Assembly (NCBI GenBank): GCA_017592665.1
Contig: JAGFNW010000027.1
Coordinates: forward strand, 28,264-92,263
DNA length: 64,000 nucleotides
Source: Streptosporangiaceae bacterium NEAU-GS5
GTDB taxonomy: Bacteria; Actinomycetota; Actinomycetes; Streptosporangiales; Streptosporangiaceae
Reading direction: 5' to 3'
Below the pieces are notes generated by a model. It worked only from the letters and a program-made list of their open reading frames with translations, did no database searches and was not told the origin of the DNA. Shown in pieces: positions 28,050 to 41,572 of the stretch. Every line of letters starts with the position of its first letter. The stretch's first letter is position 1. A program made the translations under genes and the position numbers.

Positions 28050-29083
28050 GCCTTCTCGATCTCGCCATCGTCGTCGTCCTGCTGGCGGTCAACGGCTTCT
28101 TCGTGGGCGCGGAGTTCGCCCTGATCTCGGCGCGCCGTACGCAGATCGAGCCCGGCGCCGCGGCGGGTTCGCGCCGCGCCCGCGCCGTCCTGGCGGCCAT
28201 GGACGCCGTCCCGACCATGCTGGCAGCCGCGCAACTGGGCGTGACGCTGGCCTCGCTCGCGCTCGGCGCCGTAGCCGAGCCCGTGCTCGGGCACGCGCTC
28301 GAAACGCTCTTCGCGGACGTGGGCCTGCCCACGGAACTGGCCGATCCCGTGGGTCTCGCGCTCGCCCTGCTGGTGGTGGTGACGGCGCACGTGATCATCG
28401 GCGAGATGGTGCCCAAGAACCTGGCGCTGTCCGGCCCGGACACGGCCGCGTTGTGGCTGGTCCCACCGCTGCTCTTCGTCGCGCGGGTCACGCGCCCGCT
28501 GCTCGCCGCCATTCAGGCCACCGCCACGTTGGTCCTGCGCGGGCTGGGCATCCCTCCAACGTCGGAGGTGCGGTCGGTCTACACCTCAGACGAGCTGCCC
28601 GCGCTGATCGAAGAATCGCGCCGGCACCGGCTGCTCGACCAGCGCGAGCGCGACCGGATGCTGGCCACCCTGGCCCTGCATGCCCGGCCCGTACGCTCCG
28701 TGCTGGTGCCGATCGACCAGGTCGTCAGCGTGCCGGCGGCGACCGACGCGACCCGGCTCCAGCAATACACGGCGCGCCACGGCCACTCGCGGTTTCCCGT
28801 CCACGGAGACGATCCCCAGGAGCTGCGCGGATATCTGCACGCCCTCGACGCGCTCAACCGGCACGACCCGAAGAAGAACGGAAGCCGCGAGCCGCTTCCC
28901 GTCCGTCCCCTTCTGCGCATCGGCGAGACCGCCAGCCTGGCGGAGGTGCTGGCCACCCTGCGCGGCAGTCGCGCCCAGCTGGCCGTCGTCGTCGACGCCG
29001 ACGGGCAGGCCCTCGGCATCGTGACGCTCCGCGACGTCCTGGCCGGGCTCCTGCCCGAAAGAGGGCGTGAAGTGAGCGGCTGA
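28046..29083 (+). CDS. CNNM (DUF21)-CBS domain protein, paralogue of the upstream gene
   Basis: ATGA overlap with the upstream gene. 'GAEFALISARRTQIE' DUF21 domain plus CBS domains. Confidence 0.85.
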   Translation: MSLLDLAIVVVLLAVNGFFVGAEFALISARRTQIEPGAAAGSRRARAVLAAMDAVPTMLAAAQLGVTLASLALGAVAEPVLGHALETLFADVGLPTELADPVGLALALLVVVTAHVIIGEMVPKNLALSGPDTAALWLVPPLLFVARVTRPLLAAIQATATLVLRGLGIPPTSEVRSVYTSDELPALIEESRRHRLLDQRERDRMLATLALHARPVRSVLVPIDQVVSVPAATDATRLQQYTARHGHSRFPVHGDDPQELRGYLHALDALNRHDPKKNGSREPLPVRPLLRIGETASLAEVLATLRGSRAQLAVVVDADGQALGIVTLRDVLAGLLPERGREVSG

Positions 29084-29102: not shown

Positions 29103-30170
29103 TCAGTAGCGTGCGATCAGCGCTAGCCCCTGCTCGGTCGCGAGAGCGCCATCGGTGACGAAGCTGACGAAGGCGCCCGTGGCCATCGCCATCTCGATGA
29201 TGTCGTCGACGGCGTCGTGAGTGTCGCCGGCCGGACCGGCGACGAAGTGGTCGCCCTCGAAGTGGCCGGGCGCGTGATAGCTCTCTTCGACGACGAGATG
29301 AGCGCCCCGGCCCTGCTCGACCAGCGGCCAGATCTCGTCGACCCCGGTGACGTACAGCTTCGCGCTGCGGGCCCGGTCGAGCTCCTCCATGACCTGGTCC
29401 TGGCGGCGGGCGACGTAGTCGGCGATCGCCGGCTCGACCACTTCGGCGATCTGGGCCGGGCTCGCGGAGTCGTAGTTGCCGAGGACGCGCTCGGTGACCC
29501 GCTTGCCGAGGCCGCTCACCTCGTCGAGAAAGGCGTGATAGCGGTCCACGCCCAGCACGATGAGGGGCAGGTCGTCGTGCTTGACGACCTGCTCGGTGGC
29601 GTCGGCGACCTGCCGGAAGAACTGCCGGTGCCGCTCGTCGCGATGGGCGGAGGGGTTGATCCCCAGCCCGCCCGGCAACTGCTGAGCGCCGCCCGGACCT
29701 GTATGCGTCAGGGGGAAGCCGTCGCCGTGGATCTCCCGCACCTGGTCGCCGCTGCCGAGGAACATCCTCGTGTCGTTCTCCGACAGCGCGAGCACCCAGT
29801 AGTGCCGGGCCCGGTCGTAGGCGCGGACCAGATCACGGGTGTCGAACGTGTCGGCCAGAACGACCCGCTCGCCCACGGTGAACGGCAGGCTGAACGCGTG
29901 ATGTTCGCCCTCGGCGGCGTACAGTGCCAGCGCGTCGAGAGGGCGGAGGGTCGCCGACATCTCGGCCGCCTGCTCCAGCTCGGCCATGATGCGGCGGGCG
30001 CATTCCTTGTCGGTACGCTCGGTGAGCTGCCGCTCCGCCTCGGCGAGCAGGTTGCCCAGCCGGATGGGATCCTGCGCGTTCTCCGGGGCGTGCCGATGAG
30101 CCGGCATGAGCACGCTGACGGCAGGAGTGCTGTGGGGCTGCTGCAGCTTGATGATCTGATCGCGGTCCAC
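29103..30170 (-). CDS. release-factor-like (baeRF/eRF1-Pelota-like) domain protein, hypothetical
   Basis: 355 aa. Blocks 'VSVLMPAHR', 'TRMFLGSGDQV', 'LIVLGVDRY', 'AKLYVTGVDEIWPLVEQGRGAHLVVEE' and 'DDIIEMAMATGAFVSF' resemble the bacterial eRF1-like fold. Assigned from memory of the family, not a search. Confidence 0.5.
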   Translation of the reverse strand: MDRDQIIKLQQPHSTPAVSVLMPAHRHAPENAQDPIRLGNLLAEAERQLTERTDKECARRIMAELEQAAEMSATLRPLDALALYAAEGEHHAFSLPFTVGERVVLADTFDTRDLVRAYDRARHYWVLALSENDTRMFLGSGDQVREIHGDGFPLTHTGPGGAQQLPGGLGINPSAHRDERHRQFFRQVADATEQVVKHDDLPLIVLGVDRYHAFLDEVSGLGKRVTERVLGNYDSASPAQIAEVVEPAIADYVARRQDQVMEELDRARSAKLYVTGVDEIWPLVEQGRGAHLVVEESYHAPGHFEGDHFVAGPAGDTHDAVDDIIEMAMATGAFVSFVTDGALATEQGLALIARY

Positions 30171-30255
30171 GGTCCCCCCGAGATGTTTCGTCCGACATCA
30201 GGGCGATTCCGCCCTCAGACCACCGCCATGCATCCCCGGCAAAGCCTTTACCACC

Positions 30256-31122
30256 TCATGCGCCATCAATGCCGGCGCTATGCCGCAGAACTCGTTGCCC
30301 ATGCGGATCCACCACAGCCGTCACCAGATCGCGCACTTCGGGAGCGTGTAGGTAGTTCCTGACGAGATGAAAGTCGAACCGATGGATCCGCAATGGGTCA
30401 TGTTGCTCCACATTGTCGAAGCGACTGCGGAGATCGAATGGCAGCGCGACCAGATCGCCGACGTCGGCGAGGTTGATCCAGCGGCGTACCCCCGGCGGCC
30501 GCCCGCATCGGTCATTCATCGGACCGGGCTGAAGCCGTTGAAAGATCACCTTGTTCATGCCTAGCGGACTGCCGAGGGTGATCAGAAGGTCGACCTTGGG
30601 ATCGGGCTGTGCCCAGAGCGCCTCGTAGGCTATGACGCTGCCCAAAGAGTGCGCGATCACCACCTGAGCTTGATTGGCGCGGATGGTTTCGGCGACCGTG
30701 GTGCGAGCTCTTATGCGGAACGACTCATCGCGAGGGCTTAGATAGGTGGCGACCTCGCGGACGAATGTGGTCCCCAGCCGCCGAGCGGTCGTGCCGTAGC
30801 GCTCAGTCAGCCATTCGGCGGCCTGCCGCACCTTCGCTGTGGCAGGCCCTTGCGAGGTGTGCGGCACGCCCATGAGCGACTCCACCCAGGCGACCAGCAA
30901 CTCCTGCTCTTCAGGCTCCAGCAGCGTCACGTCGTCCACGCCTTGCGCCGTACCCCGGTGCAACACGTCCGCGTAGTACGACACCGTAACTCGCGGCGCG
31001 GATTCAACCGACAGCCACCTGCTCCAGTCTTGGCTGATGGCCTCAGTAGCGGCATGCACCGAACCATGTTCGATCAGGTAGGAGTAGTTCCCGATCCCAT
31101 GGACCCCGACAATCCGAGTCAC
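30256..31122 (-). CDS. alpha/beta-hydrolase (lipase/esterase-like, PGAP1/DUF676-like) with GxSxG nucleophile
   Basis: 'VGVHGIG' N-terminus, nucleophile elbow 'AHSLGSVIAYEAL', 'ITLGSPLGM'. Lies 85 bp upstream of, and co-directional with, the release-factor-like gene. Confidence 0.7.
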   Translation of the reverse strand: MTRIVGVHGIGNYSYLIEHGSVHAATEAISQDWSRWLSVESAPRVTVSYYADVLHRGTAQGVDDVTLLEPEEQELLVAWVESLMGVPHTSQGPATAKVRQAAEWLTERYGTTARRLGTTFVREVATYLSPRDESFRIRARTTVAETIRANQAQVVIAHSLGSVIAYEALWAQPDPKVDLLITLGSPLGMNKVIFQRLQPGPMNDRCGRPPGVRRWINLADVGDLVALPFDLRSRFDNVEQHDPLRIHRFDFHLVRNYLHAPEVRDLVTAVVDPHGQRVLRHSAGIDGA

Positions 31123-31333
31123 GCCTTCTCCTCGTCTGATATGAGGTGTGCGAATCGACCGTGCGTCATGGTCGAGGCTCGTCTATCCAGAACGAATCAG
31201 GCAATCACCACTCTTACGAAAGTTCATAATTTCCACTCACTTTCAAGGTGCGTCGACCATAATAGAATCCGACCGACTGCGGCGGAAGCGTAGCTGGTCA
31301 TTTCACATCACCTGGTTGTGGAGGTTAGCCAGC
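31123..31333. promoter_or_regulatory. AT-rich divergent promoter region between the alpha/beta-hydrolase operon and the flotillin/STAND operon
   Basis: About 210 bp at roughly 45-50% GC against a background above 70% ('ttacgaaagttcataatttccactcactttcaagg', 'ccataatagaatcc'). RBS GGAGG lies 9 nt before ATG 31334. Confidence 0.5.
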
Positions 31334-32668
31334 ATGAGTGGGGCGTGGGTGGCTTTATTGGTGATTGTGGGACTGCTGTTACTCGCGGCTCTGGTTCTCA
31401 GGCATTGGTGGGAGACTCCGTCGCCGCAGCATGCGGTGGTTTTTCCGGGGAGCGGGTTCGGCAAGAGCGGCGATGCCGCGAATCTACGTGTCGTGGTCGG
31501 GCGTCCGCGACTGGTCCTGCCACCACGCCGCCACCGCGGGCGACTGAATCTCGGGACGCGCAATATTGAAGTGACGCTCGACTGCATGACGAATCAGGCA
31601 TTAAGGGTGAGAGTGGTAATCAGTATCACATATCGGGTCGGTAATTCTCCCGAGCAGATCCGGCGCGCGGCACTGCGATTCCTGAAAGACCCGGAGAGGC
31701 TGCTGGAGGTGGCCGTCAAGAATCTTGTCCAGCACAACGTGCGTACCGTGGTCGGTGAGGGTCCATACACGGCCCTGGTCCTGAATCTGGGAGAAGTCAA
31801 CGGAAAGGTCAAGGAGCGCATCCGCCAGGACTTTCAAGCCTTCGGCCTGGTGCTCGAGAACGCGGGCTTCGTCACCATCGATGATGTGGACGGGCACGGC
31901 ACGGCGTTACGCCGAGCGGCGGAGGTGGAGGCCGAGCTCAAGAAGGTGGAAGCCGACCAGCGGTTGCTGGTCGAAACGGCCCGCGCGCGAGCCGAGGCCG
32001 CGGCGGAAGTGCACGATCACAACGTGCGCTCCCACGCACTGAGCCTGGAGATCGCCACGCTTGAGGCGGATCTGGAGCGTAAGAAGCAGGAGCTCGCGGC
32101 TCGAAACATTCAGCTCGACAAACAGGACGAGTTGAGTAAGGCCCAGATCGATCACAAGATCCAGGTCCTCCATGTCGACACACGCAGCTATGAAGTCAAA
32201 CGGCGTATTGATATGGAGAGGGCCGAGCGCGAGGCCCGGAATGCGACGGACATCGAGTTGCGTCACGCGCTCGACCGGGCCGACGCGGAGAAGGGGATGG
32301 TGGAGGCCAAAGCCGAGGCCGTCCGGATTAAGGAGCGAGTCCAGGGCCTCACACCCGCGGAGGCGCAGGCGTTGATCACCCTTGAGCTCGCCGGGAAAAT
32401 GGACAAGATAGCTGCCGCGGCGAAGGTGGAGCTACCCAGCCTGGAACGGGTGATCACGTCGAGCAGCGACTCCAAGACCCTGCTCGACAACCTGATCGGA
32501 TTCGGGCTCCCGATCGCCGAGATGGTGGGCGAGATGTTCAGCCGAATGCGGGAGGCCGACCCGGCCAAGACGATCACGACGGTCGTTCAGCCGGAGATCC
32601 AGCCGCCCACGAAGCATGCCGATGAGGGACAGGCCGACGGGCGTGACGACATGCCCTCCTCCCAATGA
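31334..32668 (+). CDS. flotillin-like SPFH/band-7 domain membrane protein
   Basis: N-terminal TM 'MSGAWVALLVIVGLLLLAALVL', SPFH core ('LRVVVGRP...ALRVRVVISITYRV...QDFQAFGLVLENAGFVTIDDV') and a long Glu/Ala/Arg-rich coiled coil, as in FloT/flotillins. ATG at 31334 in track ORF 31148..32668. Confidence 0.85.
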   Translation: MSGAWVALLVIVGLLLLAALVLRHWWETPSPQHAVVFPGSGFGKSGDAANLRVVVGRPRLVLPPRRHRGRLNLGTRNIEVTLDCMTNQALRVRVVISITYRVGNSPEQIRRAALRFLKDPERLLEVAVKNLVQHNVRTVVGEGPYTALVLNLGEVNGKVKERIRQDFQAFGLVLENAGFVTIDDVDGHGTALRRAAEVEAELKKVEADQRLLVETARARAEAAAEVHDHNVRSHALSLEIATLEADLERKKQELAARNIQLDKQDELSKAQIDHKIQVLHVDTRSYEVKRRIDMERAEREARNATDIELRHALDRADAEKGMVEAKAEAVRIKERVQGLTPAEAQALITLELAGKMDKIAAAAKVELPSLERVITSSSDSKTLLDNLIGFGLPIAEMVGEMFSRMREADPAKTITTVVQPEIQPPTKHADEGQADGRDDMPSSQ

Positions 32669-35600
32669 CCACGGGTCCGACGGCACGGGCAATTGTGATC
32701 GCGATCACGGGGTTCGTCTCGGACCGCTGGTCGGCCCTGCCGTTCGCCGCCGCCCGCGCGTACGCCATACGGCGCGCCCTGCTCTCGCACGGATATCACT
32801 GCGTGACGCACATCACCGCGAGACTCACGTCCGCCGAGTTCGGCACGCTGGTACGGAACGAACTTCGCCGCGCCGGGCCAGATGACACCCTTCTTATCCA
32901 TATCCTCACGCATGGCGACATTGCCAACAAAAGCGTCCTGTACGCCCTGGGCAGCGATGGCCTCCGTCACCCCGACACGGACGTAGAGGCGTGGATCAGG
33001 ACAGTACAGAACGTCGACGGCCACCCCTTCACCCTGTTCTTGCTCGATATGTGCTACGGCGGGACGATGGCCCGGCTCTCGTGGCAGGCGAGCATCGGCC
33101 GCGCCGACACGCGAGCCTGGGTCATCGCCGCCTGCCAGCCGGACGAGGCGGCTTTCGACGGCCGCTTCAGCCAGGCCGTGGCCACCGTGCTCGACCTGCT
33201 GAGACAGGGCGACCTCGAGATCGACCCAAGCCACGCGTATGTGCCGTTCGGCGCGATCGCCCGCGCCATCCGGCAGGAGGTGAACCGGCTCGCAGGAGAT
33301 GGCCTGCGCCAACAGGTCACCGCCACGAGCGAAGATCCCGGAGATGAGGCCGCGGCGCCTCCCTTTTTCCGCAACACGGCTCACACACGCAGACGCCTCC
33401 CGGAACCGGCGAGCCAGGGGCCGGCCGACGGGGGTGCCTGGATCGTGGCGTACTTCGCCGACCAGGCGGCCGGAGCGGCGGTCTCCGGCGAAGGGGGGGC
33501 GGACCGGCCGAGAGCGGGCCGTTTCACTGGACGCAGAGATCAGCTCGGTCATCTGGCACCCTGGGTCAACCGCCTGACGGCAGGTGATCTCGCCGTGGTC
33601 ACCGGTGGCCCTGGCAGCGGCAAATCGGCACTGCTCGGCGTGCTGGTGTGCGCCGCCCATCCACTGTTGTACGCGACGGCACGGGATCTGCTGGCCGAGG
33701 TGACCCCCCTGCCCGCGCCTGTGCTCGACGGGTTCGCCGCGGTGCACGTGGCACAACGCGGGCTCGCCACGGTGTGCGACGCCATCGGACGGCAGCTGGG
33801 GCTACCCGCGGATCTCTCGGCCGACGAGCTGATCGAGCGGGTGCTTGAACGCGACCGCCCACCGGTATTGGTGATCGACGGGCTCGACGAGGCCGACGAC
33901 GGGCCGGCCATCATGCGGCGGCTGCTGCTTCCCCTGGTGAGCACGCGACGTCCCGACGGGTGGGCCGCAGCGCGGCTGCTGGTAGGCAGTCGCACATACG
34001 AGGAGTTCGAGCCGCTGCTCGAACGCGCTCGCGTCGCCGGCAATCTCATCGACCTTGACGTCGTGCCACCTGAGGACCTGCGCAAGGACCTTGCCACGTA
34101 CATATTTCGGTTGCTTCAGGACGAGCCGGCCTACCTGCGGCACGGCGCCGTGCAGGGCGCGTTCGCCGGCGCCGTGGCGGAGACTCTCACAGCGCCGCAT
34201 GGAAAAGGGCGGCAGCAGGGGGAGTTCCTCGTCGCCGGACTGTACACACGTCATTTCGTCGCCGCACACGCTCACGCTCCCATGACCGACCCAGATCGGG
34301 CCCGGGCGCTGGGACAGCGCGCGCCGAGAACGCTGGCCGAGGTGTTCGAGTTGGACATCGCGGATCGGCCTGCCTTGCGCGAGCTGCTGACCGTTCTCGC
34401 CACGGCGCGTGAACCCGGCATGCCAGTCGGCGTACTGTTCCGGATGATCACCGCCGGGCAACGTCCAGGCAGGGGCGCGAGGACAGGAACGAGCGCTGAG
34501 GTGACGACGGGCTCGCCGGCAGAAACGGGCGCCGCCGCGGACCGCATGACCATCGGACGAGTACGCGCGATGCTGCGCGAGGGTCGGCATTACCTGCGTC
34601 AGTCGACCGACACGCGGGACGGCACCACCCTCTATCGCCTATTTCACCGCAGCTTGATCGACCACCTCGCCGTGCCGGGGATAGCAGGCGACAGCCTGGA
34701 GGCGATGCTCGGGATACTGGGGCCGGCGTCCGCCCGTGACTGGGAGATGGCCGAGCCATACCTGCTCGATCACGCATGGGCATACGCGGTCGCCGCCGGA
34801 CGCGCGGCCGAGTTGCTCGATGATCCCGAATACCTGCTGAATCTCACTTCCGGGCCGCTGACGGCCGTCCTGCGAGAAGCCGGAGATCTCCCGCTCCTGT
34901 CAGCGTTCGCCGAAGTCCCGCCGATCGGGGCGGCGCCGCTGTCGGAACGGCGGTATGCGCTGGCCCTCGCGGCCGCCCGGGCGGACCGCACGCAATTCGC
35001 GGCACGCGCCGCGCGGCCACCCACCACGCAGCCGCTGCCGTGGCAACCTCTCTGGTCGAAGGGAACGCCCGTCGCGGCTGGATCACCGAGTGCGTCCACG
35101 GCCTCGCCTGCGTCCGTGCCGGCTCCGCCCTCGCCGGCCGGCGATTTCGAGCTGGCCAAGAGCAGAAGGAAACAGGAGGTCCAGGCGCTGGCCACGGCCT
35201 CGATCGAAGGGCGGCCCGTTCTCGCGGCGGCCGGCGACGACGGCCGAATACAGCTTTGGGATCTCGCCTCCCGGAAGGTCTCACTGCCACCGCTCACCGG
35301 CCACGCCGGGTCCGTGAATGCGATCGCCTGCTTCACGACGGGCGGACGGGCGAAGGCCGTCACGGCCGGATCCGACGGCACCTTACGGATATGGGACCTG
35401 GCCAGGCGGCAGTCCGAGCACATCTGGAACCTTGGTCAGGAGAGTTTTCTGCGCGGCGTGGCGTGCGCCTGGGTCGGCGACCAACAGGTAGCGGTAGTGG
35501 CCAGCGGTGACGGCTGGCTTCGCATGTGGGACGTGGTCCAGGGACGGCCCGTCGGCGGGCGGCTGGGCGAGCGGCCGGGCATTCTCACTGGTGTGGCCTG

Positions 35601-36738
35601 CGCGCAGGCTCACGGCCGTGCCGTCGCCGTCACCACGGACGAGGACGGGGAGGTGTCCGCAGTCGATCTCGGGAGTGGCGAGGTGATCGGCCGGCACGAG
35701 TATGCGCACGACGGTTCCGCGCGCGCGGTGGCCTGCACCGCGGCGGCCGATCCCCCGCTGGTCGTGACGACCGGCGACGGCGGCGTGATCCGTGTCTGGA
35801 AGCTGACCGACACTCTTGTCCCCCTCTTCAAGCTCACGGGACATCGGGACACGGTCGAGGCGGTGGCGTGCGCCACGCTTGGCGGCCGGGACGTGGTGAT
35901 CAGCGGCGACGTCGACGGCAGGGTCATCGTCTGGGATGTGGCGGAGGGGGTTCAGATCTACCAGGCTCGGCTGCGCCGCGGCTTGGTTCGGGCCGTGGCC
36001 GGCACCCTTCTCGGCACACGACCCTTCGTCCTGACCGCCGCTTCCGGGGGCGCGCTGGCCGGGCGGGATTTGAGCGAAGCGCTGTCCGGCCGGCAAGCAG
36101 CCGAGCGATCGACCGGCAGCGCGGCGGCTGCGGCCCCTCGTGGCGTCCAGATCACCCGGCTCGACGTCTTGAGTGATGAGACCGTGCGCCTCGTCTTCGC
36201 GCACGCCGGCGCCATCATTGTGGACCCGCGAACTGGTAAGGCCATCGACGGCGAGGTGGCCATGCGGGAACCCGCCGCAAATCCGCGGCAGGACGATGAC
36301 TCCCCCGTTGCCGCGACATCCGCGACGTTCTCCTTGCATGGTCGCACTATGGTGGCCGAGGTCGGTGACGACCCTCGGACCCTGCGGCTACGCGAAGCGA
36401 CATCCCACGCTCCATCACGCCCCGTTGATGATCATGGGCGCCCGTTGGGCCGTCACGAGAGCCGCATAACGACGGTGTCGGTCGCCAAGCCGGTTGGTGG
36501 CGCACCGCCCCTGCTGTTCAGCGGTGACGTGGACGGCACCGTGCGGGTCTGGGATCCGGTGCACGGGCGTGCAATGCCGGGCTTCACCTTGCCGGGGGAG
36601 ATCGTCGGTATCACGCCGCTGCGAGGGGAACTGGTCCTGGTCGACATCGGCGGTGAGATCATCGCGCTGCACCGTGCCACGACCACCGAGCACCGCGCAT
36701 CCGCCGATGGAACGGGACCCAGAGCGTCGGTCACATAA
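32665..36738 (+). CDS. caspase-like (peptidase C14) / NACHT ATPase / WD40 beta-propeller STAND protein
   Basis: 1356 aa. ATG overlaps the flotillin stop (ATGA 32665-32668). Caspase His 'IHILTHGD' (H83) and Cys 'FLLDMCYGG' (C130). NACHT Walker A 'VVTGGPGSGKS' (~aa 315) and Walker B 'PVLVIDGLDEADD' (~aa 405). From about aa 835 onward, at least 12 WD40 repeats ('RIQLWDL', 'TLRIWDL', 'WLRMWDV', 'VIRVWKL', 'RVIVWDV', 'TVRVWDP'). Confidence 0.9.
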   Translation: MTTGPTARAIVIAITGFVSDRWSALPFAAARAYAIRRALLSHGYHCVTHITARLTSAEFGTLVRNELRRAGPDDTLLIHILTHGDIANKSVLYALGSDGLRHPDTDVEAWIRTVQNVDGHPFTLFLLDMCYGGTMARLSWQASIGRADTRAWVIAACQPDEAAFDGRFSQAVATVLDLLRQGDLEIDPSHAYVPFGAIARAIRQEVNRLAGDGLRQQVTATSEDPGDEAAAPPFFRNTAHTRRRLPEPASQGPADGGAWIVAYFADQAAGAAVSGEGGADRPRAGRFTGRRDQLGHLAPWVNRLTAGDLAVVTGGPGSGKSALLGVLVCAAHPLLYATARDLLAEVTPLPAPVLDGFAAVHVAQRGLATVCDAIGRQLGLPADLSADELIERVLERDRPPVLVIDGLDEADDGPAIMRRLLLPLVSTRRPDGWAAARLLVGSRTYEEFEPLLERARVAGNLIDLDVVPPEDLRKDLATYIFRLLQDEPAYLRHGAVQGAFAGAVAETLTAPHGKGRQQGEFLVAGLYTRHFVAAHAHAPMTDPDRARALGQRAPRTLAEVFELDIADRPALRELLTVLATAREPGMPVGVLFRMITAGQRPGRGARTGTSAEVTTGSPAETGAAADRMTIGRVRAMLREGRHYLRQSTDTRDGTTLYRLFHRSLIDHLAVPGIAGDSLEAMLGILGPASARDWEMAEPYLLDHAWAYAVAAGRAAELLDDPEYLLNLTSGPLTAVLREAGDLPLLSAFAEVPPIGAAPLSERRYALALAAARADRTQFAARAARPPTTQPLPWQPLWSKGTPVAAGSPSASTASPASVPAPPSPAGDFELAKSRRKQEVQALATASIEGRPVLAAAGDDGRIQLWDLASRKVSLPPLTGHAGSVNAIACFTTGGRAKAVTAGSDGTLRIWDLARRQSEHIWNLGQESFLRGVACAWVGDQQVAVVASGDGWLRMWDVVQGRPVGGRLGERPGILTGVACAQAHGRAVAVTTDEDGEVSAVDLGSGEVIGRHEYAHDGSARAVACTAAADPPLVVTTGDGGVIRVWKLTDTLVPLFKLTGHRDTVEAVACATLGGRDVVISGDVDGRVIVWDVAEGVQIYQARLRRGLVRAVAGTLLGTRPFVLTAASGGALAGRDLSEALSGRQAAERSTGSAAAAAPRGVQITRLDVLSDETVRLVFAHAGAIIVDPRTGKAIDGEVAMREPAANPRQDDDSPVAATSATFSLHGRTMVAEVGDDPRTLRLREATSHAPSRPVDDHGRPLGRHESRITTVSVAKPVGGAPPLLFSGDVDGTVRVWDPVHGRAMPGFTLPGEIVGITPLRGELVLVDIGGEIIALHRATTTEHRASADGTGPRASVT

Positions 36739-36802
36739 TCCCTGTCGGGCCTACCTCAGCTATTGGCACGACCGCCGCGGACCAGCACGAACCGTCCTTG
36801 GC

Positions 36803-38308
36803 TCATTGTGCGAGTTCCACCGTCGGCATCCCGGTGAGGGCGATGAGAGCTTCGGCGAAGGCGTTGAGCGCTGCGGGGGAAACGTCGCCGGGCGACACGT
36901 CGGGTGAGATCTGCACGGTCAGGCCTCCTCGCGCATTGGCGCGTATGCCGATCCGCGTCGCGTCGAGGCCGACGATGACGCGGAACCAGGTTCGAACAGT
37001 TTCGTCCAGATCGTCGGTGAGCGGCAGGGGTGCCATCCGGTCGGCACCGACCGACTCAAGGATCGTCCACTCCTGTCCGCCGAGCTCGTCCAGTAACCGG
37101 GGGATGTCAGTGCTGACGACATAAAGGCAGCGCATCCCGACCCGAGACGCCGACCCCGTATGACAACCGGCCACCAAGGACCCCACCCCGAACGACGTCA
37201 GGGCCGCATTCACCCGAGGTGACTTGACGAAGTCCTTCGGCAGTCGCCAGGCAACGCTCAGTTCGATCAATTTGGTATCGGCGGAGTGGTGTATGGAGGC
37301 GCCGTTCACCACCCTGCCGTCGAGGGCGGGCGCGGCCATCGCGATCACCTGCTCGGCCACCGAATCGAGGTCTCCTGCTCTGAGGGCACTCAAGACCGGT
37401 CCCCACGCATCTGCATGTAGGTGGCCGAGCAACTCCCAGGCACACCCGCTGAGAATCGCTTGACGGGTGCGTTCACGGTGTTCCCGGGTCTCGGACCCGG
37501 GACAGGCCGCGACCAGGCCTTTGATCAGGCATGCCGCCAGTGGACCGAGATACGACCCGATTTCCGCGACGGGCACGCCGTAGTCACGGGCGCGGCGATG
37601 CAGCGTGTCCAGATCGCAGTCGGCCTGCGCGATCCAACCCTCGACGCGCAGGCGTTCCATGGCGCTGCCGGTGCCGTAAAGCGAGGGCAGCGCGCGAGCC
37701 AACCGCGTCAGTCCCTCCGCATGCTCGCGGATCTGGGTCAGGACGGCCGAGCGCCTGGCTTCGCGGCGCAGTTCGCTATGCGGATCACGCTCGATGACCG
37801 CGGACTCCACTCCCACGATCTCCAGGAAGCCGCCTGCCAACGTCGTCGCCCACTGCTCGACGATCGGAGCGATCTCGAAGCCGTGCCGTCTGACCTGCTC
37901 GTAGTCGAGATCAGCGAGTAACCTGCGAACGCGTCCGTCGAACTCGTTACGCAGCGTGGCCTCGTCCGTGAGCGTGCCGATGTCGTATTCCTCGACCCAT
38001 TCGATCAGTTCCTCGTCGTCGACGAAGGCCAGCCGCACCAGCGCGGTGACGGACAGTTGGACGAGCGCGCCGTCTCGCAGCCGAATCTGCGGGATCGTCG
38101 ACGAGTGGCGTACGACGCTCCGACTGAAGGTGACGATTTCGAGATGGCCGAGCAGCGGAACCCCGGACAGCGGGCCATGACGCCCCGGGCCGAGGACTCG
38201 GCGGCGAGGCCGGCCGTTGTGTTTGACCACCACACGTTCTGACGCGTCAACGGGGAATGCGCGCCTCGGCCATTCCTCCCAGGTGATCAGTAACCCAAGT
38301 GACATCAT
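36803..38308 (-). CDS. soluble SPFH/band-7-like domain protein with large C-terminal helical region
   Basis: N-terminal region 'VVVKHNGRPRRRVLGPGRHGPLSGVPLLGHLEIV...IRLRDGALVQLSVTALVRLAFVD...GGFLEIVGVESAVIERDP' follows the SPFH consensus. No TM segment. Convergent with the STAND gene, 64-bp gap. Confidence 0.6.
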   Translation of the reverse strand: MMSLGLLITWEEWPRRAFPVDASERVVVKHNGRPRRRVLGPGRHGPLSGVPLLGHLEIVTFSRSVVRHSSTIPQIRLRDGALVQLSVTALVRLAFVDDEELIEWVEEYDIGTLTDEATLRNEFDGRVRRLLADLDYEQVRRHGFEIAPIVEQWATTLAGGFLEIVGVESAVIERDPHSELRREARRSAVLTQIREHAEGLTRLARALPSLYGTGSAMERLRVEGWIAQADCDLDTLHRRARDYGVPVAEIGSYLGPLAACLIKGLVAACPGSETREHRERTRQAILSGCAWELLGHLHADAWGPVLSALRAGDLDSVAEQVIAMAAPALDGRVVNGASIHHSADTKLIELSVAWRLPKDFVKSPRVNAALTSFGVGSLVAGCHTGSASRVGMRCLYVVSTDIPRLLDELGGQEWTILESVGADRMAPLPLTDDLDETVRTWFRVIVGLDATRIGIRANARGGLTVQISPDVSPGDVSPAALNAFAEALIALTGMPTVELAQ

Positions 38309-38372
38309 CGCTCATTTCACACGCGGCCAGTGAGACCGGCCCGGCGGCGCTCACCGGAACGGTTTCGCCTCG

Positions 38373-39683
38373 TCACATTTCCCGGGTGTACAGATCGTCA
38401 TCTGCCATGCGCCGCAACCGGCGTGATCGCTGCTCCTGGTAGTACCGGTCGTCGGCGAGCTCGAGCCGGGCCATGTCGCGCATGTGCCGTCCGCGCTCGC
38501 GCATTCTTGTCCGCGCATTCGCGATCTTCTCGTCCTTGGTGAGGATGCGCAGCTCGGAGGCTTCCTCCAGCTCGGCCTCCCGGGCGGCGAGCAGATTCTC
38601 GTAAGGGCTTTTCCCGCCACTTCCCATGAGCGCCTTCCCGGCCACCGGAAGAACGTCGACCAGAATGATCAGCAAGGCGAGCACGAGATGGCGGAAGAAC
38701 ACCGAAGTGTGCTCACCACTCAGCGTCGACAACGCCTCCATACGAATGAGCAGTCCGTCGACCTCACGGTTGGCCGACTCCTCCAACGCGATTCTCTTGT
38801 CACGGTCGGCCTCGAGTTCGCGTTGTTTCAGACGCAACCTCTCTTCCTCTTCTTTGAGCGAGCGATCCTCGGCTGCTATCTTCTGGTCGATGCCCTTCAG
38901 CGTCGCGTTGAGATCGCGGACCGTATCCTGCTGGTCTCGCATCTGACTCTTCTTCTGTAGGGCCGAAGGGCCCTCGCCGGGAAGATGAGTGTTACTCTTG
39001 CCATCGATCTCATCGTCAAGCCTGGTCTGCAGCTTGTCTAGCTGTTCACCGGCATCCTTGATCTTTTGCTCCTGTCCCGCATGCTGATGCCGCAATTGCC
39101 GCAGGCGTTCCGAGGGCTGTCCGGCCGCCTTTATCTGCTGGTCCAGCGCGTTTATCTGCTGTGTTAGGTCGCTTCGGCCGACTGCCCTGTCGGCCTCGTC
39201 CATCCGCTCCCTCCTGATGGCGGCGACCTCGGCGGTTACCTCGGGCTCGAAGATGACCAGGATGAGCGGCTCGGAGATCGTTAGCCCCAAGATCACTGAC
39301 AGGAAAAGACGTGGAGCCAACGCCCCGATTTTCGCCTTACCGGACATCTTGGACCGATAGCTAGATACGAGCCACCGGTCAAGATTGAATATCGCGACAG
39401 CCCACAGCGCGCCAACGATCGCATTCACGGCGAAAGATGTCTTGAACGCCAAGGAGACAGAAACCACCATCGCCGTGCCGGCCATCACTGCCGTGGTGAC
39501 GACCCCGCCCCCCAATCCCTGATATCGGGTCGTCTCGGCTCGTGGACACCGGTCGAGTATGTCGCGGTCAGCACCGCTCGCAAAGATCATGAATCGCTCG
39601 ACGAAGCCGCGAGGGCCCTTCAAGCGGACCGGGGTGATGGATGAACGCATATCGGCGGACCCATTCACCGAATTGAGCGACAT
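38373..39683 (-). CDS. DUF4407-like membrane protein with long coiled coil
   Basis: N-terminus 'FASGADRDILDRCPRAETTRYQGLGGGVVTTAVMAG...FNLDRWLVSSY' matches the DUF4407 pattern (LSGA...P.ER.R...G..IL). Then 3 TM and about 200 aa of Glu/Arg/Gln coiled coil. Start uncertain (three in-frame Met). Confidence 0.65.
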   Translation of the reverse strand: MSLNSVNGSADMRSSITPVRLKGPRGFVERFMIFASGADRDILDRCPRAETTRYQGLGGGVVTTAVMAGTAMVVSVSLAFKTSFAVNAIVGALWAVAIFNLDRWLVSSYRSKMSGKAKIGALAPRLFLSVILGLTISEPLILVIFEPEVTAEVAAIRRERMDEADRAVGRSDLTQQINALDQQIKAAGQPSERLRQLRHQHAGQEQKIKDAGEQLDKLQTRLDDEIDGKSNTHLPGEGPSALQKKSQMRDQQDTVRDLNATLKGIDQKIAAEDRSLKEEEERLRLKQRELEADRDKRIALEESANREVDGLLIRMEALSTLSGEHTSVFFRHLVLALLIILVDVLPVAGKALMGSGGKSPYENLLAAREAELEEASELRILTKDEKIANARTRMRERGRHMRDMARLELADDRYYQEQRSRRLRRMADDDLYTREM

Positions 39684-40035
39684 GAAAGTCCCGTCAATCG
39701 TCGAAGGCGCATCCTATTGCGCAGGACAGTCTAGGCGGATAAGACCCCATCGTGCGCAGCCATAGGAATTCGGATCGGGCGGAGGACTGTTGTCCCCGGT
39801 GTGGGTGATGGGCTGGAACAGGACTGACCATGGAGCGGAGGCACCCGCCAAACCGACTCCTGTGGTGCGTGCTATTTCGCCGCGCCGCAACGCATCGAGC
39901 CACGACGCTCACCCACGCCGAGCACTCGGTCCAATTCCCGGCGCTCTACGCTTTGGAATCCCTCGAAACGCCCGCGGCCGCCGCACGACGCCGATCGACC
40001 AAAGAGAGACCTTGCGGGGTGATCTACCGGGTCAC

Positions 40036-40395
40036 CTAGAGCTTGATCTGATCGACGTGCTGTTCCACCCACGTGCGCAACAGCGCCAAGGGAACGGTCA
40101 CGCTCTGCCCCAAGGAGGTGAGGGCGTATTCCACATGCAGGGGGACGGCCGGATAGATGGTGCGGTCGAGGAAGCCCGCATCTTCGAGTCGCCGCAGTGT
40201 CTGAGTCAGCACCTTCGGGCTGACCCCCTGCAGGTGGCGTTGCAACGCGCCGAAGCGCTGCGGCCCGGCCTCCAGAGCGCCGATGACCAGGGCCGACCAC
40301 TTGTTGGCCAGCAGATCCAGCACGTCACGGCACGGGCAGAGCGCCGAGTAGACGTCATGATGGTCGTGCTCGCCGCTCTCACATCGCATCACCAC
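40036..40395 (-). CDS. HxlR family (winged-helix) transcriptional regulator
   Basis: 'CPCRDVLDLLANKWSALVIGALEAGPQRFGALQRHLQGVSPKVLTQTLRRLEDAGFLDR'. Confidence 0.85.
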   Translation of the reverse strand: MVMRCESGEHDHHDVYSALCPCRDVLDLLANKWSALVIGALEAGPQRFGALQRHLQGVSPKVLTQTLRRLEDAGFLDRTIYPAVPLHVEYALTSLGQSVTVPLALLRTWVEQHVDQIKL

Positions 40396-40505
40396 AGCCG
40401 ACCTCCTTACTTCCCAATAGATAGTAATCCTCCTTGCGGGTCACTACCATCCGGCAGATAGCTTGCGGTCGTCTCGAACGAGGACGGAACAACGAGGAGA
40501 CAGCC

Positions 40506-41471
40506 ATGAATGGATCGACGATGCGAGCGGTCAGCCAGTCGGAGTTCGGCGGCCCCGAGGTCCTGAAGGAGGTCGAAGAGGCCAAGCCTCAACCGCTGCC
40601 CACCGAGGTGCTGGTGCGCGTGCGCGCCGCAGGCGTCAACCCGGTGGACTGGAAGACCCGCGCCGGGCGCGGCATGGCGGGAGTGCTCGGCGAGCCGCCC
40701 TTCATCCTCGGGTGGGACGTGTCGGGTGTGGTGGAGGAGATCGGATTCGGCGTCACCGTGTGGAAGCCGGGCGACGAGGTGTACGGCATGCCCTGGTTCC
40801 CCCGCGCCGCCGGCGCCTACGCCGAATACGTGACCGCCCCGGCCCGCCAGTTCGCCCGCAAACCGGCCACGGTCAGCCACGAGCAGGCCGGCGCCGTGCC
40901 CCTTGCGGCCCTGACCGCGTGGCAGACGCTGGTCGACACCGCGCACGTCGAAGCGGGACAGCGGGTCCTGATCCACGCCGGCGGCGGCGGTGTGGGCCAT
41001 CTGGCGGTCCAGATCGCCCGCCACCTGGGCGCGTACGTCATCACCACGGCCAGCGCCGCCAAGCACCAGTGGCTGCGTGAGTTGGGCGCCGAGGAGACCA
41101 TCGACTACACGACGACCGCCTTCGAGGACGTCGTACATGACGTCGACGTGGTGCTCGACCTGGTGGGAGACGGGATCGACCACACCAGCCACCGCTCGCT
41201 GAAGGTGCTGCGCCCCGGCGGGCTCCTCATCGCGGTGCCCTCGGGCGCGGCGCACGATCTCCTGGACAGTGCCCACGCCGCCGGCGTGCGCGCCACCCCG
41301 TTCCTGGTCGAGCCGGACGGTACGGCTCTCGCCCGCATCGCCGATCTGATCGACCGTGGTGAGATCGCGGTCGAAGTCGAGGCGGTGCTGCCGCTGGGCC
41401 AAGCCGCCGAGGCGCACCAGCGCGGCGAGCAGGGCCGTACCCGTGGCAAGATCGTCCTCAGCCTCGGCTGA
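40506..41471 (+). CDS. NADPH:quinone oxidoreductase / MDR family zinc-type ADH-like
   Basis: Rossmann 'VLIHAGGGGVGHLAVQIA'. Divergent from HxlR. RBS GGAGA before ATG 40506. Confidence 0.85.
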   Translation: MNGSTMRAVSQSEFGGPEVLKEVEEAKPQPLPTEVLVRVRAAGVNPVDWKTRAGRGMAGVLGEPPFILGWDVSGVVEEIGFGVTVWKPGDEVYGMPWFPRAAGAYAEYVTAPARQFARKPATVSHEQAGAVPLAALTAWQTLVDTAHVEAGQRVLIHAGGGGVGHLAVQIARHLGAYVITTASAAKHQWLRELGAEETIDYTTTAFEDVVHDVDVVLDLVGDGIDHTSHRSLKVLRPGGLLIAVPSGAAHDLLDSAHAAGVRATPFLVEPDGTALARIADLIDRGEIAVEVEAVLPLGQAAEAHQRGEQGRTRGKIVLSLG

Positions 41472-41572
41472 GCCGGCCTCGACTTCGTGACCGACTCGCT
41501 CGATTCCGCCGGGCCCTATGCTGCGCAGTGCGGATGGCGGCGGACTCCGCCCGGCAGGAGCTGACGAGTCTG

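What the first reader, a model, noticed from the sequence alone, without database searches (positions are those of the whole stretch)
29103..39700. About 10.6-kb island with AT-rich promoters: candidate membrane-associated cell-death or defence locus
The block sits between the housekeeping-looking CNNM pair (ending 29083) and the HxlR/quinone-oxidoreductase genes (from 40036). It holds only unusual genes: an alpha/beta-hydrolase, a release-factor-like protein, a flotillin, a caspase-NACHT-WD40 STAND protein, an SPFH-like protein and a DUF4407 protein.

The AT-rich stretch at 31123-31333 contrasts with GC above 70% in the flanks. That fits horizontal acquisition or xenogeneic-silencer-type regulation.

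Each gene pair combines a putative effector (lipase-like hydrolase, caspase) with a sensor or scaffold. This architecture resembles abortive-infection islands. As a unit it appears undescribed.
Basis: inference. Interest (0 to 1): 0.85.

Follow-up and report, generated by a model that had tools for sequence, protein, structure and literature searches.

The report
Rare five-gene membrane caspase-STAND cassette
A 9.4-kb, horizontally acquired five-gene cassette combines an Apaf-1-like caspase/NTPase/WD40 protein with two flotillin-type scaffolds, a DUF4407 membrane protein and a lipase-like hydrolase. It is probably an undescribed variant of bacterial cell-death or immunity systems, and the neighbouring "release-factor-like" gene is an ordinary Balon-type ribosome hibernation factor.

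Summary
The six genes are not one unit.

**What does not belong.** Gene 29103-30170 is a Balon-family ribosome hibernation factor. It matches PDB 8RD8_B at 3e-33 over its full length. Its codon usage is host-like (GC3 0.90), and it is absent from every related locus.

**The real unit.** It spans 30256-39683 and holds five genes:
- a Ser-Asp-His alpha/beta-hydrolase;
- a TM-anchored flotillin, translationally coupled (ATGA overlap) to a caspase-like/STAND/WD40 protein;
- a convergent DUF4407 -> SPFH2 operon.

**Evidence that it is a unit.**
- These five genes have the lowest GC3 in the window (0.74-0.80 against 0.89±0.05, p=1e-5).
- The four-gene core recurs, in the same arrangement but in different flanks, in Acrocarpospora catenulata, Sinosporangium siamense and Actinomadura graeca.
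- The hydrolase travels with this STAND clade in 3 of 5 loci.

**Rarity and context.**
- The SPFH2 family is very rare: 15 hits among 1.84 billion representative proteins.
- PADLOC finds no named system.
- Remote DUF4407 and SPFH2 relatives sit at the ends of E1/JAB, vWA-PP2C-kinase and CHAT operons.

**Best reading.** This is a membrane-associated, STAND-gated caspase system for cell death or defence. It is a new variant of a known kind. The function is inferred, not shown.

The parts
30256..31122 (-). Lipase-like alpha/beta-hydrolase (288 aa, soluble). It is an accessory fifth gene that travels with this caspase-STAND clade.
   Evidence: Pfam hits are weak (Abhydrolase_6, PGAP1). HG, the HSLGS elbow (Ser159), Asp220/223 and His252 are invariant in 3 homologues. 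Homologues at 42% identity lie next to the cassette in A. graeca (L006 8920-9861) and directly after the STAND gene in metagenome contig L019. GC3 is 0.74.
31123..31333 (.). Divergent intergenic region between the hydrolase and the flotillin gene. It is the most AT-rich stretch of the 64-kb window and is the presumed promoter region.
   Evidence: GC is 0.52, with a 100-nt minimum of 0.44, the lowest of 21 intergenic regions. A CATAAT...GACCGnCTGnGGCGG block is shared with the Acrocarpospora upstream region. No sigma-70 consensus hit was found.
31334..32668 (+). Flotillin-like SPFH protein (444 aa). It has an N-terminal TM helix, an SPFH domain and a long Glu/Ala/Arg-rich coiled coil.
   Evidence: Band_7 scores 50.5 bits. 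The TM helix spans residues 1-27. Only 2 homologues reach E<=1e-10 in the 5.8-billion-sequence index. The stop codon overlaps the STAND start (ATGA) in all 4 cassettes. A TTA codon at position 8 is conserved with Acrocarpospora.
32665..36738 (+). Caspase-like peptidase / STAND P-loop NTPase / WD40 beta-propeller protein (1357 aa, no TM). The caspase-like domain covers about aa 1-240, Walker A GGPGSGKS is at 314-321, and the WD40 region covers about aa 820-1340.
   Evidence: NCBIfam caspase_w_EACC1 gives 1.8e-7 over the full model length. His83 and Cys130 are invariant in the three orthologues aligned. AAA_16 scores 41 bits, while NACHT (22 bits) and nSTAND1 are below cut-off. Orthologues are 40-59% identical over the full length, and the WD40 part is the most divergent.
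36803..38308 (-). SPFH2: a soluble 501-aa protein. It has an N-terminal SPFH-like domain, a helical middle part and a conserved C-terminal alpha/beta region (Cys382 in the VAGC motif is invariant). It is the second gene of the convergent operon.
   Evidence: Band_7 scores 22.4 bits against a cut-off of 23.6. A flotillin-2 PDB hit has E=0.36. Only 15 proteins reach E<=1e-3 among 1.84 billion representatives. The AF2 model is poor, at pLDDT 46.
38373..39683 (-). DUF4407 membrane protein (436 aa). It has three N-terminal TM helices, a coiled-coil hairpin of about 180 aa, a fourth TM helix and a long charged C-terminal helix. It is the first gene of the convergent operon.
   Evidence: PF14362 scores 233 bits. 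The AF2 model has pLDDT 81.5. No specific structural relative was found. The protein is 100% identical to a protein of Streptosporangiaceae bacterium NEAU-GS5.
39684..40035 (.). 352-bp region upstream of the DUF4407-SPFH2 operon. It marks the right-hand edge of the low-GC3 block.
   Evidence: GC is 0.63. The sequence was read. No repeats or tRNA lie at the edge.

Best explanation
The functional unit is a horizontally acquired five-gene cassette (30256-39683). It is built around an Apaf-1-like protein made of a caspase-like peptidase, a STAND NTPase and WD40 propellers.

**Shown.**
- The STAND gene is translationally coupled to a membrane-anchored flotillin.
- It always faces a convergent DUF4407 -> SPFH2 operon.
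- A Ser-Asp-His alpha/beta-hydrolase accompanies this STAND clade in 3 of 5 loci.
- The caspase His/Cys dyad and the Walker A motif are intact.

**Inferred mechanism.**
1. The two SPFH proteins and DUF4407 build a membrane-microdomain platform that holds the soluble STAND protein at the membrane.
2. The WD40 propellers bind a trigger, either an invader protein or a damage signal.
3. NTP-dependent oligomerisation brings the caspase domains together.
4. The activated protease cleaves a cassette-encoded partner. The candidates are the flotillin, SPFH2, DUF4407 or the hydrolase.
5. This unleashes membrane damage, lipolytic where the hydrolase is present, and causes growth arrest or death of the affected hyphal compartment.

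A conserved rare TTA codon at the 5' end of the flotillin gene suggests bldA-type developmental gating of the flotillin-STAND operon.

The adjacent Balon-like gene is a resident stress gene and is not part of the system.
For: **Unit composition.**
- The four core proteins are homologous over their full length in A. catenulata, S. siamense and A. graeca. Divergence is comparable across the four proteins (30-67% identity).
- Order and orientation are identical in all four cassettes, and all four have the 4-nt flotillin/STAND overlap. The flanks are unrelated.
- Hydrolase homologues lie beside the A. graeca cassette, on the opposite side. In L019 one lies directly downstream of a STAND orthologue that has no membrane genes.

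**Foreign origin.** GC3 is 0.74-0.80 against 0.89±0.05, Mann-Whitney p=1e-5. The Balon gene has GC3 0.90.

**Catalytic competence.**
- His83 and Cys130 are invariant in the three orthologues aligned.
- GGPGSGKS is present in all four.
- The hydrolase triad is invariant.

**Sensor-like behaviour.** The WD40 region is the least conserved part of the STAND protein.

**Membrane association.** The flotillin has a TM helix and DUF4407 has four. The STAND protein, SPFH2 and the hydrolase have none.

**Conflict-system context of the unusual parts.**
- DUF4407 is the last gene of a Ubl-like/JAB/E1 operon inside a defence island with SIR2, DUF4238, nSTAND5, PemK and an integrase (L007).
- It is also the last gene of vWA/PP2C-like/kinase operons.
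- It is fused to a Ser/Thr kinase on a Rhodococcus plasmid.
- SPFH2-like proteins follow JAB+E1 (L013), precede a CHAT-TPR protein (Parafrankia, L014), or follow a vWA protein (L015).

**Published parallels.**
- The EACC1-caspase two-gene membrane system, and Band7-like domains in effector positions (PMC7159879).
- Bacterial Apaf-1-like STANDs with an N-terminal caspase and WD40 sensors (PMC13581612).

**TTA codons.**
Against: - There is no experimental evidence for any step.
- No cassette protein matches a PADLOC family.
- Three of the four genomic loci lie among housekeeping or metabolic genes, not in defence islands. Only A. graeca has a PDC-S48 candidate next door.
- Caspase assignment rests on weak profile scores (30.9 bits against a cut-off of 140; PDB E=0.095) plus the conserved dyad. 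No structure was predicted for that domain.
- It is not resolved which component is the sensor, the scaffold or the executioner. The DUF4407-kinase fusions fit a sensor role for DUF4407 at least as well as an effector role.
- The sample is small: four genomes and one metagenome contig.
- TTA enrichment in the window could partly reflect its lower GC3.
Confidence: 0.5

Rival explanations
1. This is a membrane-integrity or envelope-stress surveillance module, or a developmental cell-death module, rather than anti-phage immunity. Under this reading DUF4407 and the SPFH proteins sense or organise the membrane, as HflK/C, stomatin and flotillin scaffolds do for membrane proteases. The caspase-STAND then processes endogenous substrates during stress or differentiation of the mycelium.
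For: - SPFH proteins classically regulate membrane proteases (established knowledge; the Tavernarakis 1999 paper on SPFH domains and protein turnover appears in the reference list of PMC7159879).
- DUF4407 is repeatedly tied to Ser/Thr kinase, PP2C and FHA signalling, including a fusion.
- The cassette lies among housekeeping or metabolic genes in 3 of 4 genomes.
- A conserved 5' TTA codon points to bldA-like developmental control.
- All hosts are filamentous Streptosporangiales.
Against: - The distribution is extremely patchy, and the window copy has foreign codon usage. This fits an accessory conflict module better than a developmental core function.
- Remote relatives of both unusual proteins sit in a defence island or next to E1/JAB and CHAT modules.
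- The STAND + WD40 + N-terminal protease architecture is typical of immune receptors (PMC13581612).
Confidence: 0.27
2. One reading: all six genes between CNNM and HxlR, including the release-factor-like protein, form one 10.6-kb defence island made of three effector/sensor pairs.
For: - The six genes are contiguous.
- The hydrolase and the RF-like gene are on the same strand and 85 bp apart.
- baeRF-1 families were proposed to act in conflict-related ribosome rescue (PMC6514570).
Against: - The RF-like protein is a Balon-family hibernation factor. NF052287 scores 313 bits, and PDB 8RD8_B gives 3e-33 over the full length.
- Its GC3 is 0.90, like the host genes.
- No homologue occurs within 10 kb of the cassette in any other locus.
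- The hydrolase is found without any Balon gene in L006 and L019.
Confidence: 0.04
3. There is no functional unit. The genes are unrelated accessory genes that happen to lie together.
For: No protein-protein or expression data exist, and no named system matches.
Against: - The same four genes occur in the same order and orientation, with a conserved 4-nt overlap, in four genomes. Protein identity is 30-67% and the flanks are unrelated.
- SPFH2 and this flotillin subfamily are essentially found only in this cassette.
Confidence: 0.03

Closest known systems
EACC1-caspase two-gene membrane-associated conflict system (Kaur, Burroughs, Iyer & Aravind 2020, eLife; PMC7159879, 'System 4')
   Same: A 5' gene encodes a single-TM membrane protein. 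It is followed by a gene whose product starts with a caspase-superfamily peptidase and continues with variable domains, including STAND NTPases and repeat sensors. The system is enriched in actinobacteria with a multicellular habit. The best NCBIfam hit of the caspase domain here is the EACC1-associated caspase model.
   Different: The 5' protein here is a 444-aa flotillin-type SPFH protein, not the short EACC1 domain (Pfam finds only Band_7). The caspase scores 30.9 bits against the model's 140-bit cut-off. This cassette adds a convergent DUF4407-SPFH2 operon and a lipase-like hydrolase, which are not described for that system.
[quoted passage not shown]
   Same: The layout is tripartite: N-terminal protease effector, STAND NTPase, C-terminal beta-propeller sensor. 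The sensor region is the most divergent part.
   Different: No PADLOC Avs or NACHT model matches. Pfam NACHT and nSTAND1 are below cut-off. Described Avs and bNACHT systems are mostly single genes, whereas this one is locked to three membrane-associated partners and a hydrolase.
Bacterial gasdermin-protease operons
   Same: A membrane-acting protein gene lies immediately upstream of a caspase-like protease that is often fused to NACHT and repeat domains. The logic is proteolytic activation followed by membrane damage.
   Different: No gasdermin domain was detected in any cassette protein. The upstream protein is an SPFH scaffold with its own TM anchor. Cleavage has not been tested.
SPFH scaffold-protease pairs (HflK/C-FtsH, stomatin-NfeD/STOPP, prohibitin-mAAA; established knowledge)
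   Same: An SPFH-family membrane scaffold is genetically coupled to a protease.
   Different: The protease here is a cytosolic caspase-like STAND protein, not FtsH or NfeD. No NfeD gene is present. There are two divergent SPFH paralogues plus DUF4407.
Balon / baeRF-1 ribosome hibernation factors (Helena-Bueno et al. 2024, Nature; PMC10901736). This applies to gene 29103-30170 only.
   Same: It matches Balon (PDB 8RD8_B) over the full length at 3e-33. NF052287 scores 313 bits and Pfam baeRF_family3 scores 147.8 bits.
   Different: It is 17 bits below the NCBIfam equivalog cut-off (330). It lies next to CNNM transporter genes rather than raiA/hpf. Ribosome binding has not been tested.

Membership tests
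EACC1-caspase two-gene system | The 5' gene encodes the EACC1 domain (a short single-TM domain with a Gly-rich helix). | tested here: not met
   The upstream protein is 444 aa, and Pfam finds only Band_7. It does have one N-terminal TM helix.
EACC1-caspase two-gene system | The 3' protein begins with the EACC1-associated caspase domain (NCBIfam NF047832 at or above 140 bits). | tested here: not met
   The score is 30.9 bits, E=1.8e-7, aligned over model positions 2-208 of 211. The His/Cys dyad is conserved. The domain is related but is not a member by the curated threshold.
Caspase superfamily (clan CD) peptidase | A His...Cys catalytic dyad in the conserved order on a caspase/hemoglobinase fold. 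| tested here: inconclusive
   His83 (LTHG) and Cys130 (LLDxC) are invariant in the three orthologues aligned (the fourth was not checked at these columns). The profile hit to caspase-3 has E=0.095. Pfam gives no hit even at E<=1. The fold was not modelled.
STAND NTPase (NACHT / AP-ATPase type) | A P-loop NTPase domain passing a STAND family model, followed by repeat sensors. | tested here: inconclusive
   AAA_16 scores 41.8 bits against 32.6 and passes. NPHP3_N scores 25.5 against 24.8 and passes marginally. NACHT (22.1 against 26.7) and nSTAND1 (17.3 against 27.1) fail. Walker A is conserved. WD40 repeats are present.
Named anti-phage defence systems (PADLOC-DB v2.0.0) | Cassette proteins match the system's HMMs. 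| tested here: not met
   There are only spurious repeat or coiled-coil hits (HEAT-ARM_XIII at 28.6 bits on the WD40 region; JetC at 13.9 bits on the coiled coil). Orthologues in L006 and L019 also give no hit. DefenseFinder was not available.
Bacterial gasdermin system | A gasdermin-domain protein adjacent to the protease. | tested here: not met
   No gasdermin family appears among the Pfam hits of any cassette protein.
SPFH / Band 7 superfamily (flotillin gene 31334-32668) | Pfam PF01145 above its gathering score. | tested here: met
   The score is 50.5 bits against 23.6. It is not the FloT equivalog, scoring 43 bits against 700.
SPFH / Band 7 superfamily (SPFH2 gene 36803-38308) | Pfam PF01145 above its gathering score. 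| tested here: inconclusive
   The score is 22.4 bits against 23.6. The profile hit to flotillin-2 has E=0.36. Remote relative P0018 carries a weak Band_7 hit, and P0017 is named HflC-like by its source.
DUF4407 (PF14362) | A Pfam model match above its gathering score. | tested here: met
   The score is 233 bits against 31.3, covering model positions 1-297 of 297.
Balon-type ribosome hibernation factor (gene 29103-30170) | Full-length similarity to Balon/aeRF1-like factors that passes curated models. | tested here: inconclusive
   Pfam baeRF_family3 scores 147.8 against 31.5 and is met. PDB 8RD8_B gives 3.3e-33 over residues 8-355. NCBIfam NF052287 scores 313 against 330, just below. Ribosome binding cannot be tested here.
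Genomic island (horizontally acquired) | Atypical composition relative to the host. | tested here: met
   GC3 is 0.74-0.80 for 5 genes against 0.89±0.05 for 44 genes, p=1e-5.
Genomic island (horizontally acquired) | Homologous block in different genomic contexts in other taxa. | tested here: met
   Four genomes have four unrelated sets of flanks.
Genomic island (horizontally acquired) | Mobility hallmarks: integrase or transposase, a tRNA target, flanking direct repeats. | tested here: not met
   No tRNA lies at the edges; the only tRNA is at 49692. No convincing flanking repeats were found, and the neighbours are metabolic genes.
Genomic island (horizontally acquired) | Empty site between the same flanks in close relatives. 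| not testable with these tools
   No close relative of NEAU-GS5 was reachable. The genome scan with the Balon protein found nothing. The flanks are not syntenic in Nonomuraea gerenzanensis.

The most novel reading that the evidence does not exclude
The cassette is a previously undescribed membrane-platform 'apoptosome'. Two flotillin-type scaffolds and DUF4407 assemble a microdomain that docks an Apaf-1-like caspase-STAND receptor. Once activated, its protease releases a lipolytic or membrane-disrupting execution step.

More generally, DUF4407 and the SPFH2 family would be a new class of interchangeable membrane output (or input) modules. They would be shared by STAND-caspase, CHAT, E1/JAB ubiquitin-like and vWA-PP2C-kinase conflict systems of filamentous bacteria. 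Expression would be gated by the rare-codon tRNA bldA.
Probability: 0.3. Interest if true: 0.75.

Novelty: new variant of a known kind. Interest (0 to 1): 0.6.

Why it matters
STAND receptors with protease effectors are the bacterial counterparts of apoptosomes and inflammasomes. How they connect to an execution step is known only for a few cases, such as gasdermins and nucleases.

This cassette links such a receptor, through translational coupling and conserved synteny, to flotillin-type SPFH scaffolds, to an uncharacterised membrane protein family (DUF4407) and to a lipase-like hydrolase. That gives a concrete, testable case of lipid-raft-like scaffolding in prokaryotic cell death or immunity.

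The analysis also gives DUF4407 a first functional context. It appears as the terminal module of E1/JAB, vWA-PP2C-kinase and STAND-caspase operons. A very rare SPFH-like family recurs in similar systems.

Practically, the work removes a false member (the Balon gene) and defines the exact five-gene block to clone.

Tried and rejected
- **Genome scan with the Balon-like protein.** Intended to test presence or absence between the same flanks. The exact peptide patterns found no relative.
- **Exact look-up of the flotillin.** Not on record.
- **Synteny test in Nonomuraea gerenzanensis** (its chromosome is filed among the plasmids). The CNNM pair and the HxlR/QOR pair lie about 4.7 Mb apart. The CNNM copies are only 37-43% identical. 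The test is therefore uninformative.
- **AlphaFold2 of SPFH2 with a 2-sequence alignment.** pLDDT was 46.5, unusable, so no fold search was run on it.
- **PDB sequence searches.** The NTPase region, the flotillin and the hydrolase gave no significant hits.
- **Promoter and terminator scan.** No excess over shuffled sequence.
- **Convergent junction 36739-36802.** It has no stable hairpin; z = -0.29.
- **Flanking direct and inverted repeats.** Only chance-level short matches.
- **DUF4407 in phages and plasmids.** No phage match, and only two remote matches in the plasmid collection (a Rhodococcus plasmid, plus the N. gerenzanensis record that is really its chromosome).
- **Xenogeneic silencing of the AT-rich region.** Not testable here and not pursued.

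Full report
**1. What is in the sequence**

The window has about 70% GC. It comes from Streptosporangiaceae bacterium NEAU-GS5: the DUF4407 and SPFH2 proteins are 100% identical to proteins of that strain.

ORF listing and third-position GC identify these genes around the finding:

| Coordinates | Strand | Gene |
|---|---|---|
| 26718-28049 | + | CNNM1 |
| 28046-29083 | + | CNNM2 |
| 29103-30170 | - | baeRF_family3 protein |
| 30256-31122 | - | divergent alpha/beta-hydrolase |
| 31334-32668 | + | flotillin-like Band_7 protein |
| 32665-36738 | + | 1357-aa caspase-like/STAND/WD40 protein |
| 36803-38308 | - | 501-aa protein with a sub-threshold Band_7 match ('SPFH2') |
| 38373-39683 | - | DUF4407 protein |
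| 40036-40395 | - | HxlR |
| 40434-41471 | + | quinone oxidoreductase |

It swapped the order of the hydrolase and the release-factor-like gene. The 'NACHT' label is also not established: AAA_16 passes, while NACHT and nSTAND1 are below cut-off.

The AT-rich stretch at 31123-31333 is real. At 52% GC it is the lowest of 21 intergenic regions in the window. The genes directly next to it are 62-63% GC, not above 70%.

**2. The release-factor-like gene is a Balon-type hibernation factor and does not belong**

- It aligns end to end with NCBIfam NF052287, 'AOC03_06830 family ribosome hibernation factor', at 313 bits against a cut-off of 330.
- It aligns with PDB 8RD8 chain B at E=3.3e-33 over residues 8-355. 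8RD8 is one of the coordinate sets of the Balon paper (PMC10901736).
- That paper shows that Balon homologues are widespread stress-operon genes that occupy the ribosomal A site.
- Its GC3 is 0.90, like the surrounding host genes.
- No homologue lies within 10 kb of the related cassettes elsewhere.

**3. The real unit**

The flotillin has only two homologues at E<=1e-10 in the 5.8-billion-sequence index. They come from Acrocarpospora catenulata (67% identity) and Sinosporangium siamense (37%).

In both genomes the flotillin gene is followed by a STAND-WD40 gene with a 4-nt overlap. That pair faces a convergent pair made of a DUF4407 gene and then a gene of about 500 aa. A DUF4407 search added Actinomadura graeca, which has the same four genes in the same relative arrangement.

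All four proteins align over their full length, with parallel divergence:
- window vs Acrocarpospora: 55-67% identity;
- window vs Sinosporangium: 34-43%;
- window vs A. graeca: 30-45%.

The flanks are unrelated in every case:
- DoxX and a 2OG oxygenase in Acrocarpospora;
- the obg-proBA-nadD-rsfS housekeeping cluster and an LPMO gene in Sinosporangium;
- a DEDDh exonuclease and DUF1905 genes in A. graeca;
- CNNM/Balon and HxlR in the window.

A degenerate-pattern scan of 185,579 species genomes with the SPFH2 alignment found only Acrocarpospora and Sinosporangium. A full HMMER search of 1.84 billion representative proteins found 15 proteins at E<=1e-3. Only three of them reach E<1e-30, and these are the cassette orthologues. 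The cassette is therefore very rare, and so far restricted to Streptosporangiales.

**4. The hydrolase is a fifth, facultative member**

- A 42%-identical homologue lies next to the A. graeca cassette, but on the DUF4407 side rather than the flotillin side.
- The single metagenome scan, run with the caspase-domain alignment, returned one actinobacterial contig (L019). There a 39%-identical STAND orthologue carries an extra IF2_N domain. It is followed directly by a 42%-identical hydrolase, and no flotillin, SPFH2 or DUF4407 lies within 10 kb.
- The hydrolase therefore tracks this STAND clade in 3 of 5 loci, independently of the membrane genes.
- Its HG motif, HSLGS nucleophile elbow, Asp220/223 and His252 are invariant.

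**5. Composition**

- The five genes from 30256 to 39683 have GC3 of 0.74-0.80.
- 44 other genes of the window average 0.89±0.05 (Mann-Whitney p=1e-5).
- In the other three genomes the cassette has host-like GC3 of 0.86-0.95. The NEAU-GS5 copy therefore looks like the more recent arrival.
- No tRNA, integrase or flanking repeat marks the edges.
- An empty-site comparison with a close relative could not be made.

**6. Anatomy of the proteins**

*Flotillin.* It has a TM helix at residues 1-27, an SPFH domain and a long coiled coil.

*STAND protein.*
- The caspase-like domain has invariant His83 (LTHG) and Cys130 (LLDxC).
- Walker A GGPGSGKS lies at 314-321 in the window protein, and the motif is present in all four orthologues.
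- WD40 propellers cover about residues 820-1340, and this is the least conserved region.
- It has no convincing TM segment.

*SPFH2.* It is soluble, with an SPFH-like N-terminus and a conserved C-terminal region. Its AF2 model was unusable.

*DUF4407.*
- The AF2 model has pLDDT 81.5. It shows three TM helices, a coiled-coil hairpin of about 180 residues, a fourth TM helix and a long C-terminal helix.

**7. Context of the two unusual families elsewhere**

*DUF4407 relatives (26-34% identity):*
- One is the last gene of a Ubl-like/JAB/ThiF-E1 operon. That operon sits in a defence island with SIR2, DUF4238, an nSTAND5 protein, PemK and an integrase (L007).
- Others are the last gene of vWA/PP2C-like/kinase operons or follow two kinase-like genes.
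- One is fused to a Ser/Thr kinase next to NYN, PP2C and FHA genes on a conjugative Rhodococcus plasmid.

*Remote SPFH2-like proteins:*
- They head a second conserved triad, followed by a protein of about 330-390 aa and a HerA/TraG-like P-loop protein of about 950 aa.
- That triad is preceded by JAB+E1 in L013, followed by a CHAT-TPR protein in Parafrankia elaeagni (L014), and preceded by a vWA protein in L015.

Both families thus recur as terminal modules of signalling-type, conflict-like operons. Whether they are outputs or membrane sensors is open. The kinase fusion argues for a sensor role at least sometimes.

**8. Mechanism**

*Shown:* the gene linkage, the translational coupling, the intact catalytic motifs, the membrane anchoring of two components and the fast-evolving WD40 region.

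*Inferred:* the SPFH/DUF4407 proteins form a membrane platform for the STAND protein. Ligand binding by the WD40 propellers drives NTP-dependent oligomerisation. The caspase domains, brought into proximity, cleave a cassette partner. Membrane damage follows, lipolytic where the hydrolase is present.

*Rival:* the main rival is a non-immune role in envelope-stress surveillance or developmental cell death. Several points favour it:
- the housekeeping neighbourhoods in 3 of 4 genomes;
- the link between DUF4407 and kinases;
- a conserved rare TTA codon.

TTA is codon 8 of the flotillin gene in both the window and Acrocarpospora (where GC3 is 0.91). It is codon 7 in Sinosporangium. Each flotillin orthologue has at least one TTA codon. 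A tRNA-Leu(UAA) gene lies at 49692-49765.

Only A. graeca has a defence candidate (PDC-S48) next to the cassette.

**9. Comparison with known systems**

- *Closest published analogue.* This is the EACC1-caspase two-gene membrane system of Kaur et al. 2020. The same paper notes Band7-like domains in effector positions of vWA proteins. The membership tests fail: the 5' protein is not EACC1, and the caspase scores 30.9 bits against a cut-off of 140.
- *Apaf-1-like STANDs.* Bacterial versions with an N-terminal caspase and WD40 sensors are known (PMC13581612).
- *PADLOC.* No PADLOC v2 model matches.
- *DUF4407 in the literature.* It is mentioned only incidentally, in three papers.
- *SPFH or flotillin defence systems.* The two literature searches listed no paper whose title or abstract describes one; the hits were not opened.

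**10. Verdict**

The finding is best described as a rare, horizontally acquired five-gene caspase-STAND cassette with a novel membrane module. It is a new variant of a known kind, and its function is still inferred.

Noticed in passing
window 29103-30170 (-): Balon-family ribosome hibernation factor: baeRF_family3, NF052287 at 313 bits, PDB 8RD8_B at 3e-33. It lies 19 bp downstream of a CNNM/CorC transporter pair, on the opposite strand, and has native codon usage.
   Followed up: yes
window 31355-31357 (flotillin codon 8); L001 codon 8; L002 codon 7; tRNA at window 49692-49765 (-): A rare TTA Leu codon is conserved at the 5' end of the flotillin gene in three orthologues, even where GC3 is about 0.9. 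The window cassette holds 8 TTA codons. A tRNA-Leu(UAA), bldA-like, is the only tRNA in the window. This suggests bldA-type translational gating of the flotillin-STAND operon.
   Followed up: partly
L013 4355-10263; L014 10001-15528; L015 10001-20168: A second conserved triad exists: an SPFH2-like protein, a protein of about 330-390 aa without a Pfam hit, and a HerA/TraG-like P-loop protein of about 950 aa (46-51% identical between loci). It lies next to JAB+E1, CHAT-TPR, or vWA/DO-GTPase2-like genes. It looks like another undescribed conflict-type module.
   Followed up: partly
L007 6399-11437; L009 6969-11278; L010 2331-6799; L016 6896-9382: DUF4407 recurs as the terminal gene of Ubl-like/JAB/E1 operons and of vWA/PP2C-like/kinase operons. 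It also occurs as an 828-aa DUF4407-Ser/Thr kinase fusion next to NYN, PP2C and FHA genes on Rhodococcus plasmid pLW2.
   Followed up: partly
L006 18495-19754 (-): In Actinomadura graeca the gene next to the flotillin is a DEDDh (RNase_T) exonuclease matching PADLOC candidate PDC-S48 (E=7e-70). Its GC3 is low (0.75), so it may be a neighbouring acquired defence gene.
   Followed up: no
L019 708-4607 (+): The metagenomic STAND orthologue carries an N-terminal IF2_N domain (44.7 bits) ahead of the caspase-like domain. The window protein has no such domain.
   Followed up: no
L006 about 18018 (-): The A. graeca flotillin gene call (start 17985) probably starts too late. An in-frame ATG 11 codons upstream restores the N-terminal TM helix (MLWVVTIAAVAVPIFG...).
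   Followed up: partly
window 47785-48783 (+): An isochorismatase-domain ORF has the lowest GC3 of the window (0.70). It lies about 900 bp from the tRNA-Leu(UAA) gene and may be another acquired gene.
   Followed up: no
window 3541-6108 (-): A large LuxR-family regulator with AAA_16, TPR and GerE domains (855 aa). It is an ordinary actinobacterial STAND-type transcription factor and is unrelated to the cassette.
   Followed up: no
window 40036-42592: An HxlR regulator is divergent from a quinone oxidoreductase, and a second, 35%-identical zinc-dehydrogenase paralogue follows. The HxlR/oxidoreductase pair is conserved as a pair in Streptomyces, Kitasatospora and Nonomuraea records.
   Followed up: partly
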